Of a stretch of DNA of 64,000 nt, positions 7,475 to 16,924 are shown one piece after another (position 1 is the stretch's first letter; the number at the start of each line of letters is the position of its first letter). The notes beneath the pieces are model-generated. The model made no database searches. It was given only the letters and a program-made list of their open reading frames with translations, and was not told the origin of the DNA. The stretch is from assembly GCA_024614665.1 (NCBI GenBank), contig GCA_024614665.1_4861.1. The stretch is one strand, 5' to 3'. Source of the stretch: a phage. Position numbers and translations under genes: made by a program.

Positions 7475-8968
7475 TTATTTCTTCTTAGTCAAGAACTTCG
7501 GTTCCAGACCATCCACGGCCATCGCTAGTAATGACATTGCTGTTAAACAACGCTTACCACCTTTGACTTCCTGATCCTTGAACATCCAGTATTCCACCGT
7601 ATTGTCCAGAATTTCATTCCAGTCCCACTTTTCGTCGATAACCTTATAAAGCTCCGCCGGTGAGAGATGATATTTCATTTCCAGTCGGTGGTAGTTGTTC
7701 TGCATATACGCTAACGCAGCAGTGATTTCCAATGCCCTACGTAAACGCGGATTGCTGTCACACATGTCGCGAATCGTGGTACGCATGAAAGATGTACCAG
7801 GTAACAAATCGAGGGTATAATTAGCACCACTACGTTTGTAGCCCCATTCATCTTTCAGTGTGTCGCTCAGGTAATGCCACAGAGAGAGGTGATAAAGCAG
7901 ACCCATCTCCTGTGAGAAGACCATTTTGAACTTAACGCCTGTGTGACCACCTTTCGCACGGTACTGCGTGAAGACGATTTCTTTCAGGTCGTTTACCGAA
8001 GCATTCATCGCTTTTGAACGCGCAGTCGGGTATTTCTCTTCGTTTACACCGGTCTTCGCGTTGTAAGTCTGATCCTGCTTCAACTCACCAGACTTGGTTG
8101 CAACCAGCAGGGAGTTAGTTAAGAACGACAACTGACGACGCGGAATACCCGCAAACTTCAAATCATCGCCAGCATCGTCTAGCAGTTTACCGTTCGCTTT
8201 CGGTCCACCGCGACCGCCGGCAGCCATCGCCTTACCAGCATCGTCGGCCAGTTGAGCAACAAAGCCCATGTAGAAACCGCCACGCGCGAATGCAGATGGC
8301 CAACGACTCATCATGTTAGACTTTTGCAGCGCGTCGTGGGCGTTCAGGATGTTCTGTTCGGAGTCACCGACTTCTGATTTGGCATGTTTCTCTTCCAGAG
8401 AAGAGGTGTGCCATTCAGACAGGGAGTCAATCGAGTACAACCACGGGTCGAGAATCTTTTTCGCAGAGCGGCGAATTGGGTCCGGGAACGGCGTTTCGCG
8501 CGCTTTACCAGCCATATACTCTTTGAAACGTTTTTCGACTTCATCACGAATATAGGCAGAGTAATATTCTTCACCTGCCATGATATCCGAGCCAACCATG
8601 TTGTAACGACCTTCGTGGATCAGGTCCAGCACGCCGCCTGTTGGTGATACTTCTAATCCGTTTGCTTTCGCAGCGGAGATGTACCCCGTTTCCAGACGAC
8701 TTAATGCTGCCGTAACTTCGGTATCGTATTTCGATCCCCAGGCTGCATTATAACGTTGCAGAATCATGAAAATGCAGAAGTCTAATAAGGTAGACTTAAA
8801 AGTGTTCCCACGACCTGCGAAGCCCATGATGTGGGCAAAACCACCGTTGAGGTAGTACAAACCATCTTCCCCGCGCTCGTAGTTACCGAGAGCGTGGTCC
8901 ATGATGGTATATACGTTAAAACGAGGGCGAATTACTTCACCCATGACTTGTTTAGCTGGACCTGCCAT
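7475..8968 (-). CDS. putative RecA/UvsX-family recombinase-like ATPase (497 aa)
   Basis: N-terminal P-loop-like segment GFAGRGNTFKSTLLDFCIFMILQRY, which I recall resembles the T4 UvsX Walker A region (AGPSKSFKS...YMRQY); rest unassigned. Confidence 0.4.
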   Translation of the reverse strand: MAGPAKQVMGEVIRPRFNVYTIMDHALGNYERGEDGLYYLNGGFAHIMGFAGRGNTFKSTLLDFCIFMILQRYNAAWGSKYDTEVTAALSRLETGYISAAKANGLEVSPTGGVLDLIHEGRYNMVGSDIMAGEEYYSAYIRDEVEKRFKEYMAGKARETPFPDPIRRSAKKILDPWLYSIDSLSEWHTSSLEEKHAKSEVGDSEQNILNAHDALQKSNMMSRWPSAFARGGFYMGFVAQLADDAGKAMAAGGRGGPKANGKLLDDAGDDLKFAGIPRRQLSFLTNSLLVATKSGELKQDQTYNAKTGVNEEKYPTARSKAMNASVNDLKEIVFTQYRAKGGHTGVKFKMVFSQEMGLLYHLSLWHYLSDTLKDEWGYKRSGANYTLDLLPGTSFMRTTIRDMCDSNPRLRRALEITAALAYMQNNYHRLEMKYHLSPAELYKVIDEKWDWNEILDNTVEYWMFKDQEVKGGKRCLTAMSLLAMAVDGLEPKFLTKKK

Positions 8969-10146: not shown

Positions 10147-10188
10147 CCTCCCACCTACCGTAACTGGTAGGTGGGAGGGTTTTATTTT
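10147..10188 (+). terminator. intrinsic terminator
   Basis: 13-bp GC-rich stem cctcccacctacc/ggtaggtgggagg then TTTTATTTT. Confidence 0.6.
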
Positions 10189-11110
10189 AAACGGTAAGGA
10201 AACCACGAACGAGCGTTGGTGGAATCCATCTTACGACTTTCTGGCGTACGCCATCGCGCGGACCTTTCCAGAAAGTGTGCCAATGTGCACGCCGCATATG
10301 TGCTTTACGACCACCTTCTCTTAATCCGCTCGTGGTTGTTCCGTACTGATTGAGATAGCGTTCCTGTTCGTTTATGGTTGAAATAACAATTGGCTTAGAT
10401 CGTGGCTGGACATGATAATCCGGCATCGTTTTTCTTTTCTTCCTTTTTGGGTATACCGTAGGTTCGGGATAACGCGGGATGAGAGAACAGGTAAAGAGCA
10501 TTGCAGTGACTAGCCGATGGGGTGCCTCTGTCCATTCATCGAACACCCCACTAAGTTTAACAAAGCCGTTCCCCACATCTACGATTTCTGCGGCATCAAC
10601 CTGTACACAATCGACCGCGTTACGAAAAATACTTAGAATCAAACAGTCTTTTCCTTGAATCCACCGCCTGGAGATATAATAAACCAATTCCAGTTTTTCA
10701 CCAGTCTGCTGTATGATCTCTAGGGGGAATTCTACGGTCCATCCTGGGATTTTATCAAACCAGTCACGCGGCAATTCATCGAGAAGATCGGAGCCTATCA
10801 TCTGTTCAAACACAAAAGAGTCACCGATAAGTAACACACCACCATAACGGTAACCGTGTGCGATAGTGGCGTAAAGATTTTGAACTTCAAGGTTTTTCGG
10901 AGTAGACGATAAGAAATATTCCGGTGGAATGAACCGCTGACCTATGCACCCCTCGTGCTCAGACGCATATTTCTCAACCAAGTTGATGCCCCTGGAACGT
11001 TCATTTGCTTTACTCAACATGACAAGGAAATCACCATCGGTTTTCACTCTATCAGCATCAATACCCAGCAATTTTAATGCTACTTTATCACTTTCACTAA
11101 TGTTAAACAT
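10187..11110 (-). CDS. hypothetical protein (307 aa)
   Basis: Long ORF; upstream has terminator hairpin, AATCGACTAT motif, AAGGTG RBS. Confidence 0.5.
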   Translation of the reverse strand: MFNISESDKVALKLLGIDADRVKTDGDFLVMLSKANERSRGINLVEKYASEHEGCIGQRFIPPEYFLSSTPKNLEVQNLYATIAHGYRYGGVLLIGDSFVFEQMIGSDLLDELPRDWFDKIPGWTVEFPLEIIQQTGEKLELVYYISRRWIQGKDCLILSIFRNAVDCVQVDAAEIVDVGNGFVKLSGVFDEWTEAPHRLVTAMLFTCSLIPRYPEPTVYPKRKKRKTMPDYHVQPRSKPIVISTINEQERYLNQYGTTTSGLREGGRKAHMRRAHWHTFWKGPRDGVRQKVVRWIPPTLVRGFLTV

Positions 11111-13860: not shown

Positions 13861-14601
13861 TTACTTTAAGAGATGCAAGAAGCGTGCTGCCTGTTCTGTA
13901 AAGTGAAAATACTCGATGGTATCAGGTTCGTCCGAGTGAATGTCATCCGGGTCCAGCAGGTAGCCCGAGATATCATCCGTTAAAACCCAAGCGTCCCCTT
14001 GCAGGAAAATACCCATCGGTTTTTCTACCACGGGCATCACTAAGTCCGAATAAGAGTTACCTTCTGCTACCCTTACAATGTCTACACACGGGTCAACAAT
14101 ATACAGGTTGCAGAGACTGCGATCTTTAAGACTGCGATGAAACATCGCTCGATCGTACCAAATAACCTGAGAACAATTATCTTCGTCACCCGCCACATCG
14201 ACCAACTCTGTCCAGAAACGATGTAAGAACCAGTTCAACGCACCGGTTATTAGCTCGTTCGGTTTCAGCATTCTAACGTGTTCGTCGTACAACTCTTCCA
14301 TTGTCCAGATTCGACACTGCTCACGATCGATTGTCGGTAGGGGAGGTATTTGCGGCGGGACTTGTTTAGGCATCGGTTCATCACATCTTGCATTGTAACG
14401 CGCAATTGTTTCGGTAACCAGCTCTGCCACAACATCACAAGCCGCTTCAAATCCCCACTTGTACAACACGTCGTAATCTTCCATGGGCGCAGCACCGAAC
14501 TCACGGTTCGTTGCCATCCACGACATCCATCCGTATTGCTCCACACAGTTAATCAGACTTTGTGTGTGGAGCGTGAGCGATTCACTCACGACTCGCAACA
14601 T
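13861..14601 (-). CDS. hypothetical protein (about 246 aa)
   Basis: Start moved to the ATG at 14601, directly after the stop of the upstream RNase H gene; the longer track ORF would overlap it. Confidence 0.45.
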   Translation of the reverse strand: MLRVVSESLTLHTQSLINCVEQYGWMSWMATNREFGAAPMEDYDVLYKWGFEAACDVVAELVTETIARYNARCDEPMPKQVPPQIPPLPTIDREQCRIWTMEELYDEHVRMLKPNELITGALNWFLHRFWTELVDVAGDEDNCSQVIWYDRAMFHRSLKDRSLCNLYIVDPCVDIVRVAEGNSYSDLVMPVVEKPMGIFLQGDAWVLTDDISGYLLDPDDIHSDEPDTIEYFHFTEQAARFLHLLK

Positions 14602-14602
14602 G

Positions 14603-16117
14603 TTACACCTCTTCTTCTCGCAGTATGCGACGGTTTGCGTAATACGCACACCACAACCCATGATACTCTTTACCGATATAGATTAAGAAGTAACGGATGT
14701 AGTATTTTTCAGGACGACACACCGCGATGTAATAACGGCCTTCCGGTTCTTTAATACGGTTGATTTCCGTACGCGATGGAATATCGATGCCGCGAGTCAA
14801 AATAACCGAGACAGGTCGTTTACCCATCGGAAAGTCAATCTTTAACGTTATTGACTTATCGACGCTACGGTAGTATTCCTTGACAGGTTTACCTTTGTCG
14901 TCGAATAGCAAGTCGGTAATGTCGTTTAAGACATAACCCTTTTCCTGATGCAGAACATCTCGCAACGTTGTAGCGAGTTCGTCACGAATATCCAGCGCAC
15001 GGTACGACAATAAGGGCGGGCGAAGCATTCTGGAGATGGCCAGGTCTTCAAAGAACCAGACATTGGAATCTTCTCCACTGAAATGCATCTTGTCTGCCGG
15101 TAATCCATCACCTGCCACATCAACGAACTTCTTACGTTTAACGAACTCATTGTTAACAACACCGATTGGATCATACTGCCGCATCTTCGGTGTATCTTTC
15201 CATGCCAGGGCGGCGTGGGTGTTTACAATCGTGTAGATGTTATCCCACGGTTGTTTAGTGAACATTACGGAAAAGTGTGCATCAGGAATCATTTTCCCAA
15301 TAAACACCAAGTCGTCCTTGTTCTTTGCATGGTTACCACCAAACATGTAATAGAAAGTTTCATCTTTCACTTTTACAGTAGGATGGTCCTCGTTCACCAA
15401 CGGATAGCAATATTTAACCGTACAAATCGGCGGATATGCCGCAAGGTTCATCCCAGCGGCGATGGGCTCGGGTTCCGCGGATGCAGGCAACTCATCTTTC
15501 GACCAGTACGGCTGATATGGAACGCCGTCGTTGGTCGCAGTGATAGCTGAACCTTTTCTAGCCAATTCGTCCGCCCGGTCGTTACCGTAGTGGCCGGAGT
15601 GTCCTTTGATTTTGATAACCTTAACACCCCGTCCTTCTTTTTTCATCTGCTGTTTGATTTCCCAGATACGAACAATAAGTTCTTTGTTCGCCAGCGGAGT
15701 ACCGTCAGCACGAACCCAACCACGTTTATGCCAGCCGTCTATCCACTCGTTAAAAGTGTTTACAACGTAACTGGCATCCACGTAGATGATATAGTTCTTC
15801 GCGCGGAAGGGTGCGTTCTCAAACAACGTGATGAAGGCGATTAACTCGCCCACATCTGAGTAGAACTCTTTCGGAACGGGAATAACGGCGTCGACAAATT
15901 GAACGGTGTCCGGCAACTCCGGACACTTCACATCCTGCGGCACTTTTTTGTATCCAACAGTGGTAATCCGTTCTGAAACACCCGGATGGCTATAAGCCTG
16001 ACTGTCTTCCAAATCTCCGTTGTTGAATAAATAACCATGAATACCAGCCCCCGAACCTTTCGGGGACTCAGTATGACTACCATCGGTATAAATAACCGCT
16101 ACGTCGACGTCTTTCAT
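14603..16117 (-). CDS. RNase H (type 1) domain protein with about 320-aa C-terminal extension
   Basis: N-terminal VIYTDGS and KIKGHSGHYGNDRADELARKG match RNase HI catalytic motifs; C-terminal two thirds have no recognisable motif. Confidence 0.65.
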   Translation of the reverse strand: MKDVDVAVIYTDGSHTESPKGSGAGIHGYLFNNGDLEDSQAYSHPGVSERITTVGYKKVPQDVKCPELPDTVQFVDAVIPVPKEFYSDVGELIAFITLFENAPFRAKNYIIYVDASYVVNTFNEWIDGWHKRGWVRADGTPLANKELIVRIWEIKQQMKKEGRGVKVIKIKGHSGHYGNDRADELARKGSAITATNDGVPYQPYWSKDELPASAEPEPIAAGMNLAAYPPICTVKYCYPLVNEDHPTVKVKDETFYYMFGGNHAKNKDDLVFIGKMIPDAHFSVMFTKQPWDNIYTIVNTHAALAWKDTPKMRQYDPIGVVNNEFVKRKKFVDVAGDGLPADKMHFSGEDSNVWFFEDLAISRMLRPPLLSYRALDIRDELATTLRDVLHQEKGYVLNDITDLLFDDKGKPVKEYYRSVDKSITLKIDFPMGKRPVSVILTRGIDIPSRTEINRIKEPEGRYYIAVCRPEKYYIRYFLIYIGKEYHGLWCAYYANRRILREEEV

Positions 16118-16836
16118 TATTCTCCTCGCAACTGCGGTGGAATGTATTCACCTGTGCACATTTCGCGGTGGGCTTCTAACATGCGCTCGAAGCCGTACGT
16201 ACGCGCGACCAGGGCCAAATGATAGATGCGTGCCGTAGAATACGCTTCCTTCGCAGCATCAAAGCTAGCGTTATGCTCGTACGCTTCTTTGCCACGGGTC
16301 CAATGGTGCGCTTCTGCGTGCCAGTTAGGTTCCAGGCCAAACGCATATGCAATACGCTCTGCAGTCCGGTCAGAGTCCAATATAGAAAACTTGCGGTACT
16401 TGCCCGGCGGGATATCGCACTGCGCGAACGCGTTCATCAGAATTGGAGCATCGAAATCGGGACCGCGCATGGTGATAACCATTTTCACGTTGCCCAGATC
16501 ATCCAACCATTTTTTGGCCGCCCACAGTGCTTCTGGCAGTGGCGTGGTCCCAGAAAACGCTTCAACACGTGCTTTCTCGCTCGGTGCGTATTCGGGGTCG
16601 CCTTTACCTTCCCAATAGCCGACCGTTTGTGGATCGATGTAGAAGATTTCTTTTGCTTTTGCATCGTTAGGGTCGATTTTGTGGTAACACGAACCGATCA
16701 TTTTCATTGTCGGAACATCGAATGCCACGTTTGCCAACGTTAAGATGTAGGCATCTGGACGTAAAGCCAGGGTCTCTAAGTCTGTACCAACAACCACGGT
16801 TGGTGTTAAAACAGGCAGAATTTTAGGATAGGTCAT
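16117..16836 (-). CDS. DEDDh-type 3'-5' exonuclease (DnaQ-like fold)
   Basis: VVGTDLETLAL (Exo I D-x-E) and HNASFDAAKEAY (H-x4-D Exo III) motifs; 1-nt overlap with RNase H gene. Confidence 0.55.
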   Translation of the reverse strand: MTYPKILPVLTPTVVVGTDLETLALRPDAYILTLANVAFDVPTMKMIGSCYHKIDPNDAKAKEIFYIDPQTVGYWEGKGDPEYAPSEKARVEAFSGTTPLPEALWAAKKWLDDLGNVKMVITMRGPDFDAPILMNAFAQCDIPPGKYRKFSILDSDRTAERIAYAFGLEPNWHAEAHHWTRGKEAYEHNASFDAAKEAYSTARIYHLALVARTYGFERMLEAHREMCTGEYIPPQLRGE

Positions 16837-16881: not shown

Positions 16882-16918
16882 TAAAAAAGGAAATCCCTCT
16901 TACCCGAAGGTAAGAGGG
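16882..16918 (-). terminator. intrinsic terminator
   Basis: ccctcttacc-cgaa-ggtaagaggg stem followed on minus strand by T-run. Confidence 0.55.
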
Positions 16919-16924
16919 GAATTT

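What the first reader, a model, noticed from the sequence alone, without database searches (positions are those of the whole stretch)
14603..16836. RNase H domain fused to a large unknown C-terminal domain, overlapping a DEDDh exonuclease gene
Seen: the 504-aa protein has a canonical RNase HI N-terminal domain (about 180 aa) followed by about 320 aa without recognisable motifs; its start codon overlaps the stop of an upstream DEDDh-type exonuclease gene by 1 nt. Inference: a coupled nuclease pair for primer removal or host nucleic acid degradation; the extension may target the RNase H to replication or another complex.
Basis: partly seen in the sequence, partly recalled or inferred. Interest (0 to 1): 0.45.

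Follow-up and report, generated by a model that had tools for sequence, protein, structure and literature searches.

The report
Jumbo-phage RNase H–clamp polymerase subunit (Rhc)
The 504-residue protein is the Salmonella phage SPN3US copy of Rhc, a recently characterised protein of nucleus-forming jumbo phages. In Rhc an RNase H domain is tethered to a sliding-clamp-like DNA-binding domain that docks on the phage's split DNA polymerase, so the finding is real but already explained.

Summary
Window 14603-16117 (-) encodes a 504-aa protein with an intact RNase HI domain. Its ATG shares one base (TAATG) with the stop of an upstream 239-aa DEDDh exonuclease gene, 16117-16836 (-).

The window is an SPN3US-like jumbo phage (Seoulvirus, a chimallin-encoding lineage). 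The protein equals SPN3US_0207 / ACQ60_gp059.

The whole protein aligns end to end with phiKZ gp155 and Goslar gp190 and sits in the same gene neighbourhood. Those two are the characterised Rhc ("RNase H-clamp") proteins. Two 2026 preprints and a 2025 Nature paper show that Rhc is an active RNase H. Its clamp domain binds the thumb of the split B-family polymerase and the emerging duplex, and it is needed for phage DNA replication.

The "coupled nuclease pair" idea is only weakly supported. The T4 DexA-like exonuclease is overlap-coupled to Rhc across the SPN3US-like lineage, but it is absent at this position, and undetected by tblastn, in phiKZ-type and Goslar phages.

Novelty: already known. 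The conserved exonuclease coupling is the only untouched point.

The parts
14603..16117 (-). Rhc (RNase H-clamp) gene, 504 aa plus stop. Equals SPN3US_0207 / ACQ60_gp059. Orthologue of phiKZ gp155 and Goslar gp190.
   Evidence: ORF. 99.2% DNA identity to SPN3US. Annotation. Full-length BLASTP to Goslar gp190 at 8e-38 and to phiKZ gp155 at 4e-38. PHROG 3265 at 1e-189.
15533..16117 (-). RNase HI domain, residues 1-195. Catalytic residues D12, E91, D114, H173 and D183. Carries an E. coli-type basic protrusion (WIDGWHKRGWVRADGTPLANKEL) and a roughly 40-residue insertion at about 32-72.
15437..15532 (-). Flexible acidic, proline-rich linker, residues 196-227 (pI 4.05).
   Evidence: pLDDT below 50 at residues 209-215, and full-length pTM 0.56 against 0.89 for the C-terminal domain alone. 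The most variable and indel-rich stretch of the alignment. Composition.
14606..15436 (-). Sliding-clamp-like DNA-binding and polymerase-docking domain, residues 228-504 (pI 8.2). Conserved motifs include RPPLLSYRA, where L370 aligns with phiKZ M346, and a C-terminal YYxxxRIL tail.
16117..16836 (-). DexA-like / Rv2179c-like DEDDh 3'-5' exonuclease gene, 239 aa (SPN3US_0206 / ACQ60_gp060). Its stop overlaps the Rhc start by 1 nt.
   Evidence: PF16473 at 8.6e-9, above the cut-off, and PHROG 255 at 4.5e-53. D19, E21, D129, H188 and D193 conserved. T4 DexA is in the same Pfam family. hhalign against DexA gives probability 85%, E 5.8e-6.
16115..16127 (-). Translational-coupling junction: GAGGAG Shine-Dalgarno (16127-16122), 4-nt spacer, then TAATG stop/start overlap.
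   Evidence: Read directly from the sequence. The same overlapped junction occurs in relatives: 1 nt in L012, 4 nt in L010, 8 nt in Vibrio phage pVp-JHP1101.
16885..16919 (-). Hairpin terminator (10-11 bp stem, TTCG loop, T-run) that ends the upstream unit. It is followed by an AT-rich TATATAAT element (16860-16853) and a GGAG Shine-Dalgarno (16847-16844) before the exonuclease ATG. This is the likely start of the exonuclease-Rhc transcription unit.
   Evidence: Terminator scan and sequence. Promoter function is not shown.
13861..14601 (-). Next gene in the same tightly packed unit (246 aa, PHROG 9472, function unknown). Its ATG lies 1 nt after the Rhc stop.
   Evidence: ORF and PHROG match starting at residue 21 of the longest ORF. 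SPN3US annotation of gp058.

Best explanation
The 504-aa protein is the SPN3US-type orthologue of Rhc, the RNase H-clamp subunit of the chimallivirus replication machine.

Proposed mechanism:
1. An active RNase HI domain (residues 1-195) is joined by a flexible acidic linker (196-227) to a basic, monomeric, sliding-clamp-derived domain (228-504).
2. The clamp domain docks on the thumb, palm and palm-insertion domains of the phage's two-gene B-family DNA polymerase (DNAP-N and DNAP-C). Together with the thumb it grips the duplex leaving the active site, which raises polymerase activity and probably processivity.
3. The tethered RNase H is held near the incoming template, where it can remove annealed RNA such as R-loops and possibly primers. 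Separately, it resolves R-loops that impede late transcription.
4. In Goslar the clamp domain, not the RNase H domain, localises to the phage nucleus.

Basis of each step. Shown here: the domain anatomy, the intact active site, the clamp-like fold, orthology, synteny, and the presence of polymerase partner genes in the reference genome. Shown by others for phiKZ and Goslar: RNase H activity, polymerase binding and stimulation, essentiality, and localisation. Inferred: that these properties transfer to this phage.

The upstream overlapping gene encodes a T4 DexA-like DEDDh 3'-5' exonuclease. It is probably co-transcribed and translationally coupled with Rhc in this lineage, but it is an accessory gene and not part of the conserved Rhc-polymerase core.
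For: Identity of the window:
- It is 99.2% identical to SPN3US over the locus.
- SPN3US encodes a diverged chimallin homologue (PMC9365700).

Orthology:
- Full-length BLASTP gives 26% identity to phiKZ gp155 (4e-38) and 27% to Goslar gp190 (8e-38).
- The catalytic residue phiKZ D102 aligns with D114 here.
- Gene order is conserved in SPN3US, phiKZ, PA7 and Goslar: a divergently transcribed virion structural protein, small genes, Rhc, then a UvsX-like gene of about 490 aa, then an RNAP beta fragment.

Domains:
- RNase HI. Each catalytic residue is kept in 95-98% of 137 representatives.
- The C-terminal-only model has pLDDT 90.3 and pTM 0.89.
- The full-length pTM of 0.56 and the low-confidence linker indicate flexible tethering. 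This matches the RNase H domain being unresolved in the cryoEM maps (PMC13648687).

Distribution:
- The clamp domain alone finds 241 phage records, all under "ribonuclease H" genes of phiKZ-like jumbo phages.
- It also finds 795 protein clusters, nearly all 440-580 aa with the domain at the C-terminus.

Partner genes in SPN3US:
- gp248 is PF20286 (divergent family B polymerase) at 4.6e-284.
- gp222 is 32-37% identical to phiKZ gp82, the DNAP-N subunit, at 5e-53.

Literature on orthologues:
- PMC12571901: phiKZ155 is a bona fide RNase H, it is essential for genome amplification, and the D102N mutant still complements.
- PMC13648687: cryoEM of polymerase-Rhc-DNA, plus stimulation of primer extension that is abolished by interface mutations.
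- PMC13648698: in Goslar both domains are needed, and there is a separate role in late transcription.
Against: - Nothing was measured for the SPN3US protein itself. Identity to the characterised orthologues is only 26-27%.
- Of the three phiKZ interface residues mutated in the preprint, only M346 maps cleanly, to the conserved L370. F478 and I479 fall in a tail that BLASTP did not align. The RIL (497-499) to FIL (478-480) correspondence is my reading.
- The two model phages disagree on whether RNase H catalysis is needed, so the catalytic contribution in this phage cannot be predicted.
- The polymerase partner genes lie outside the 64-kb window and were checked only in the SPN3US reference genome.
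Confidence: 0.88

Rival explanations
1. Coupled nuclease pair. The DEDDh exonuclease and the RNase H fusion act together as one nuclease system. For example, RNase H nicks RNA in hybrids and the 3'-5' exonuclease degrades the released oligonucleotides, for primer removal, or the pair degrades host nucleic acids.
For: The stop/start overlap, with a Shine-Dalgarno inside the exonuclease gene, is conserved from the window to relatives whose Rhc is only 29-47% identical. These are L012 (1 nt), L010 (4 nt) and Vibrio phage pVp-JHP1101 (8 nt). Adjacency in Erwinia phages follows from matching coordinates. A terminator immediately upstream suggests the two genes head one transcription unit. The exonuclease belongs to the family of T4 DexA, which RefSeq annotates as acting in replication and host DNA degradation.
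Against: No exonuclease gene sits upstream of Rhc in phiKZ, PA7 or Goslar. tblastn finds the exonuclease in 83 phage records, none of them Pseudomonas phages, against 241 records with the Rhc clamp domain. Rhc is essential on its own in phiKZ and Goslar, and in phiKZ its essential role is non-catalytic (PMC12571901). Gene order in this region is conserved generally, so adjacency may simply be inherited. One family member has lost the D-x-E motif (P0059). No interaction or activity data exist.
Confidence: 0.2
2. The C-terminal domain is a true ring-forming sliding clamp (an oligomer encircling DNA) that carries RNase H around the replisome, as PCNA recruits RNase H2 or FEN1.
For: The best structural matches are ring-forming clamp protomers: 9-1-1 subunits, PCNA, gp45 and beta clamps. 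Chimalliviruses lack any other recognisable clamp (PMC7824862; PMC13648687).
Confidence: 0.04
3. The protein is chiefly an R-loop and transcription factor, or a nuclear-import cargo or scaffold. The C-terminal domain would serve mainly for nuclear targeting and general nucleic-acid binding, not as a polymerase subunit.
For: In Goslar the clamp domain alone localises to the nucleus and the RNase H domain alone does not. Rhc is also needed for late-gene transcription independently of replication (PMC13648698). phiKZ gp155 (Nlp2) is an import cargo (10.1101/2024.03.27.586873). Each catalytic residue is conserved in 95-98% of family representatives, which argues that catalysis matters.
Against: These roles add to the polymerase role and do not replace it. 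Direct polymerase binding, stimulation of primer extension and loss of replication on knockdown are documented for two orthologues (PMC13648687, PMC13648698). Family members that have lost the RNase H active site or the whole RNase H domain still keep the clamp domain. That points to the clamp function as the indispensable part.
Confidence: 0.08

Closest known systems
Rhc (RNase H-clamp) of Chimalliviridae: phiKZ gp155 (also called phiKZ155 or Nlp2) and Goslar gp190
   Same: The architecture matches: an RNase HI domain, a flexible linker and a C-terminal clamp-like domain of about 280 aa, total 482-508 aa. Full-length sequence homology holds at E about 1e-38. The catalytic Asp aligns (phiKZ D102 with D114 here). 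The genomic neighbourhood is the same. The genome has the same split DNAP-N/DNAP-C polymerase.
   Different: Identity is only 26-27%. The SPN3US-lineage gene is preceded by, and overlaps, a DexA-like exonuclease gene that phiKZ and Goslar lack. Nothing has been measured for this orthologue.
Bacterial and eukaryotic RNase HI/H1 (E. coli RnhA, human RNase H1 catalytic domain)
   Different: A roughly 40-residue insertion separates strands 2 and 3. The protein scores far below the NCBIfam equivalog cut-offs (70 bits against 160). It is fused to a 300-residue C-terminal module. It has no hybrid-binding domain of the eukaryotic type.
Monomeric clamp-fold processivity factors of eukaryotic DNA viruses (HSV-1 UL42; also HCMV UL44, KSHV PF-8, EBV BMRF1)
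   Different: Structural similarity is weak, and the match to 9-1-1 and PCNA protomers is closer. For phiKZ the association with the polymerase is reported as transient. Rhc carries a fused nuclease, which the herpesvirus factors do not.
Ring-forming sliding clamps (PCNA, 9-1-1, T4/RB69 gp45, bacterial beta)
   Different: There is no sequence similarity (6-12% identity). The protein is reported to be monomeric and to lack ring-closing elements. No clamp loader is known.
T4 DexA (exonuclease A) and M. tuberculosis Rv2179c family, Pfam PF16473 (for the upstream gene)
   Same: The upstream gene passes the Pfam gathering score. It has the DEDDh motifs D-x-E, FDxPI and H-x4-D. The profile aligns with T4 DexA at probability 85%, E 5.8e-6.
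   Different: The relationship is very distant: tblastn does not find T4, and no PDB sequence hit is significant. Substrate (RNA or DNA) is unknown. Overlap-coupling to an RNase H-clamp gene has no counterpart at the T4 dexA locus.

Membership tests
Chimallivirus Rhc (RNase H-clamp) | N-terminal type-1 RNase H domain with the catalytic D-E-D-(H)-D set | tested here: met
Chimallivirus Rhc (RNase H-clamp) | C-terminal domain of about 280 aa with a sliding-clamp-protomer fold | tested here: met
Chimallivirus Rhc (RNase H-clamp) | Full-length sequence homology to the experimentally characterised members | tested here: met
   phiKZ gp155: 26% identity over residues 5-493, E 4e-38. Goslar gp190: 27% identity, E 8e-38. 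The clamp domain alone retrieves both lineages by tblastn.
Chimallivirus Rhc (RNase H-clamp) | Conserved genomic position in a chimallin-encoding jumbo phage | tested here: met
   Shared gene order in SPN3US, phiKZ, PA7 and Goslar. The SPN3US chimallin homologue is reported in PMC9365700. My own BLASTP of the presumed chimallin found nothing, as expected at the reported 10% identity.
Chimallivirus Rhc (RNase H-clamp) | The genome encodes the split B-family polymerase partners DNAP-N and DNAP-C | tested here: met
   SPN3US gp248 is PF20286 at 4.6e-284. gp222 against phiKZ gp82 gives 5e-53. Both genes lie outside the window and were checked in the reference genome only.
Chimallivirus Rhc (RNase H-clamp) | Conservation of the polymerase-interface residues (phiKZ M346, F478, I479) | tested here: inconclusive
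   M346 aligns with L370 in the nearly invariant RPPLLSYRA motif. F478 and I479 lie in a tail beyond the BLASTP alignment. A conserved RIL (497-499) may correspond to FIL.
Chimallivirus Rhc (RNase H-clamp) | Binds DNAP-C and duplex DNA as a monomer, stimulates polymerase, cleaves RNA:DNA hybrids, localises to the phage nucleus | not testable with these tools
   Known only for phiKZ and Goslar (PMC13648687, PMC13648698, PMC12571901). No multimer prediction or assay was available here.
Canonical sliding clamps (PCNA / beta / gp45) | Protomers assemble into a closed ring around DNA and are loaded by a clamp loader | not testable with these tools
RNase HI equivalog (NCBIfam NF001236, RnhA) | Score above the curated equivalog cut-off | tested here: not met
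   70.4 bits against a cut-off of 160. It is a type-1 RNase H domain but not an RnhA equivalog.
DEDDh exonucleases of Pfam PF16473 (T4 DexA / Rv2179c-like), for the upstream gene | Pfam gathering score passed and the D, E, D, H, D catalytic residues present | tested here: met
   35.8 bits against a cut-off of 27. D19, E21, D129, H188 and D193 are conserved. T4 DexA is in the same family. hhalign gives probability 85%. Activity and substrate were not tested.

The most novel reading that the evidence does not exclude
In the SPN3US-like branch of nucleus-forming jumbo phages, the DexA-like DEDDh exonuclease may be a lineage-specific fourth component of the Rhc-polymerase machine. This branch includes the Salmonella, Erwinia, Cronobacter and Vibrio pVa-21-type phages and marine relatives. 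The exonuclease would be made in fixed proportion to Rhc through stop/start coupling. It would act on Rhc's products or substrates, for example by degrading the RNA oligonucleotides left by RNase H or by trimming 3' ends at R-loop-primed replication starts. The published phiKZ and Goslar work could not have seen this, because those phages lack the gene.
Probability: 0.15. Interest if true: 0.5.

Novelty: already known. Interest (0 to 1): 0.3.

Why it matters
Rhc explains how nucleus-forming jumbo phages replicate 200-300 kb genomes without a recognisable sliding clamp or primase. A clamp-derived, non-ring DNA-binding module with a tethered RNase H serves as a third polymerase subunit and also clears R-loops, in a compartment where transcription is uncoupled from translation.

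Recognising the window's gene as the SPN3US orthologue extends that model to a genetically tractable Salmonella phage and corrects the vague "ribonuclease H" annotation.

The remaining open point is why one large sub-lineage keeps a DexA-like exonuclease translationally coupled to Rhc. A second comparative point supports the clamp as the indispensable part. Each catalytic residue is kept in 95-98% of family members, yet rare members have lost the active site or the whole RNase H domain while keeping the clamp.

Tried and rejected
- Sequence searches of the full protein against PDB chains and NCBIfam recovered only the RNase H part. Nothing matched residues 200-504 by sequence.
- The exonuclease, alone and as a profile, gave no significant PDB match. 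RNase T scored E 0.22, although its motifs were in register. NCBIfam gave nothing.
- BLASTP of the presumed SPN3US chimallin against the phiKZ shell protein found no similarity. The literature reports only 10% identity between the SPN3US homologue and 201phi2-1 chimallin.
- Sigma-70 promoter matches around the locus were no more frequent than in shuffled sequence (6 against 7.4 expected). These phages use their own RNA polymerases, so no promoter is claimed.
- I considered whether the exonuclease-Rhc pairing is a universal feature of the family. I rejected this after reading the phiKZ, PA7 and Goslar loci.
- I considered whether the short proteins hit by the clamp profile are just gene fragments. 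At least one, P0197, is a complete 280-aa gene inside a viral contig.
Full report
**Observation.**
- The ORF listing gives a 504-aa ORF at 14603-16117 (-) and a 239-aa ORF at 16117-16836 (-).
- The minus strand reads CGAGGAGAATAATGAAA. The upstream stop TAA and the downstream ATG therefore share one base, at 16117. A GAGGAG Shine-Dalgarno lies 4 nt before the ATG, inside the exonuclease gene.
- The next gene downstream starts 1 nt after the 504-aa ORF's stop.
- Upstream of the exonuclease gene there is an 88-nt gap. It holds a strong hairpin terminator (16918-16895, T-run), an AT-rich TATATAAT element and a GGAG Shine-Dalgarno.
The two genes probably head one tightly packed transcription unit. 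That last point is inferred.

**Source of the window.**
- The locus is 99.2% identical to Salmonella phage SPN3US (Seoulvirus) and its close relatives.
- There the two genes are SPN3US_0207 "putative ribonuclease H" and SPN3US_0206 "putative endodeoxyribonuclease". In RefSeq they are ACQ60_gp059 and ACQ60_gp060.
- SPN3US has a diverged chimallin homologue, so it belongs with the nucleus-forming jumbo phages (PMC9365700).

**N-terminal domain.**
- Pfam RNase_H scores 8e-22 but covers only residues 89-190.
- PDB phmmer hits to E. coli, Thermus and human RNase HI/H1 reach 1e-11 to 1e-13. They align the basic-protrusion segment WIDGWHKRGWVRADGTPLANKEL and the GHSGHYGNDRADELA motif.
- In an alignment of 39 homologues, E91, D114, H173 and D183 are invariant and D12 is nearly so.
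- In 137 representatives of the wider family, each of the five residues is kept in 95-98%, and 129 of 137 keep all five.
- The AlphaFold model (mean pLDDT 88) has the RNase H fold, with an insertion of about 40 residues between strands 2 and 3.
- The protein is not an RnhA equivalog by NCBI's cut-off: 70 bits against 160.

**C-terminal domain.**
- No Pfam, NCBIfam or PDB sequence match exists. PHROG 3265 does cover the full length at 1e-189, and the region is highly conserved.
- Residues 196-227 form an acidic, proline-rich linker of variable length and low confidence. Full-length pTM is 0.56, against 0.89 when residues 228-504 are modelled alone at pLDDT 90.3. The two domains are therefore flexibly tethered.
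- Foldseek ranked PCNA and 9-1-1 first but below significance: best E 1.8e-3, TM about 0.3. The similarity is consistent in kind but distant.
- The domain is net basic (pI 8.2), whereas the rest of the protein is acidic.

**Family and literature.**
- tblastn with the C-terminal domain alone finds 241 phage records. All are phiKZ-like jumbo phages, infecting Pseudomonas, Erwinia, Salmonella, Aeromonas, Vibrio, Serratia, Klebsiella, Ralstonia and others. The match always lies under a gene annotated as ribonuclease H.
- A profile of the domain finds 795 clusters among 1.84 billion representatives. Nearly all of the top 150 are 440-580 aa with the domain at the C-terminus.
- The window protein aligns end to end with phiKZ gp155 (26% identity, E 4e-38). 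phiKZ D102 falls on D114, and M346 falls on L370 of the RPPLLSYRA motif. It also aligns with Goslar gp190 (27% identity, E 8e-38).
- Gene order around it is shared by SPN3US, phiKZ, PA7 and Goslar. The neighbouring 497-aa gene is a UvsX-like recombinase.
- These orthologues are now characterised.
[quoted passage not shown] - It is a nuclear import cargo, named Nlp2.
  - Two October 2026 preprints name it Rhc (RNase H-clamp). They relate its C-terminal domain to PCNA and 9-1-1. By cryoEM, a single clamp domain sits on the DNAP-C thumb and on the product duplex of the split DNAP-N/DNAP-C B-family polymerase. Rhc strongly stimulates primer extension unless the interface is mutated.
  - In Goslar both domains are needed for replication, and Rhc has a separate role in late transcription that is attributed to R-loop removal (PMC13648687; PMC13648698).
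- SPN3US encodes both polymerase halves. gp248 is PF20286 at 4.6e-284, and gp222 matches phiKZ gp82 at 5e-53. Iyer et al. had already noted that this phage group always has an RNase H1 but no primase (PMC7824862).

**Upstream exonuclease.**
- Pfam PF16473 (Rv2179c-like) is above threshold, and PHROG 255 scores 4.5e-53.
- The family alignment conserves D19-x-E21, F128-D129 and H188-x4-D193, which is the DEDDh signature.
- PDB sequence searches gave nothing significant. RNase T scored E 0.22, with its motifs in register.
- T4 DexA belongs to the same Pfam family at 2.4e-22. It aligns to the family profile at 85% probability, E 5.8e-6. Its RefSeq note describes a 3'-5' DNA exonuclease acting in replication and host DNA degradation.
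- tblastn finds the gene in only 83 phage records. These are the Salmonella, Erwinia, Cronobacter and Vibrio jumbo phages plus a few distant small phages. No Pseudomonas phage is among them.
- Where the gene is present in jumbo phages, it sits directly upstream of Rhc.
  - Erwinia phages Asesino, Machina, Kwan, Phobos, Derbicus and pEa_SNUABM_38, by matching coordinates.
  - Vibrio phage pVp-JHP1101, with an 8-nt overlap.
  - A marine metagenome contig, with a 4-nt overlap.
  - A 184-kb contig, with a 1-nt overlap.
- phiKZ, PA7 and Goslar have small unrelated genes at that position.
- The coupling is therefore an old, conserved trait of one sub-lineage and not of the Rhc family. Neither the Goslar Rhc preprint when searched for the term nor the parts of the phiKZ preprint that I read mention such an exonuclease gene next to Rhc.

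**Interpretation.**
- Best explanation, confidence 0.88: the gene is the SPN3US orthologue of Rhc and works as described for phiKZ and Goslar.
- The idea of a functional nuclease pair is possible for this lineage but unsupported (0.2).
- Host nucleic acid degradation by Rhc is unlikely, given that its orthologues localise to the phage nucleus.

**Additional comparative point.**
- A few family members have lost the RNase H active site. Examples are P0099, which carries an N-terminal Macro domain, and P0100 and P0168. Others lack the RNase H domain entirely, such as P0197, a complete 280-aa gene on a viral contig. All of them keep the clamp domain.
- This agrees with the experimental finding that the non-catalytic clamp function is the indispensable one.

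**Verdict.** The feature is real and correctly described, but it is already annotated and its family is already explained mechanistically. Interest is 0.3. The only unexplored element is the conserved exonuclease coupling.

Noticed in passing
window 10187-11110 (-): A 307-aa ORF (PHROG 6160, unknown function, no Pfam hit). SPN3US lacks it at this position: the window has 981 bp more between the UvsX-like gene and Rhc. Salmonella phage SaP7 has it, at 99.2% identity over the whole stretch. JN03 and EC001 cover only 61% of the stretch, so this looks like a variable accessory-gene slot.
   Followed up: partly
window 7475-8968 (-): A 497-aa UvsX-like recombinase (PHROG 97, 2.8e-55; no Pfam hit). 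It occupies the position of phiKZ gp152, which the import preprint calls Nlp1, a nuclear RecA-like protein. Rhc therefore lies in a conserved replication and recombination neighbourhood.
   Followed up: partly
window 16894-16919 (both strands): A perfect 10-11 bp GC-rich hairpin with a TTCG loop and T-runs on both sides. It is a bidirectional terminator-like element between the gp061 homologue and the exonuclease gene. TATATAAT (16860-16853) follows it, just before the exonuclease gene.
   Followed up: partly
P0099, P0100, P0168, P0197, P0128; locus L014 2203-3045: Rhc relatives that keep the clamp domain without an intact RNase H. P0099 has an N-terminal Macro domain and a degenerate RNase H region. 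P0197 is a complete 280-aa clamp-only gene on a 7-kb viral contig, two genes upstream of a DUF7194 gene. Overall, 8 of 137 representatives lack the D-E-D-H-D set.
   Followed up: partly
P0193 (668 aa): [quoted passage not shown] It may be a homing-endonuclease remnant or insertion, or a merged gene call.
   Followed up: no
GenBank LR535903-LR535917 (SPFM phages): Several SPFM genome records match this locus only as 5-40 short pieces. They yield fragmented "hypothetical proteins" (P0035-P0037, P0047, P0070-P0075, P0079). These look like frameshift-rich assemblies, not real gene variants.
   Followed up: no
P0059 in alignment A3: One member of the exonuclease family, on a 239.5-kb contig, has CVAKT in place of the D-x-E-T motif. 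Its exonuclease is probably inactive even though the gene is retained.
   Followed up: no
window about 25,400-64,000 (by correspondence with SPN3US 133900-172500): According to the SPN3US annotation, the rest of the window carries two adjacent radical-SAM genes, a macro-domain gene, an SMC-domain (SbcC-like) gene, an endolysin and very large virion structural genes. I did not verify any of these in the window.
   Followed up: no
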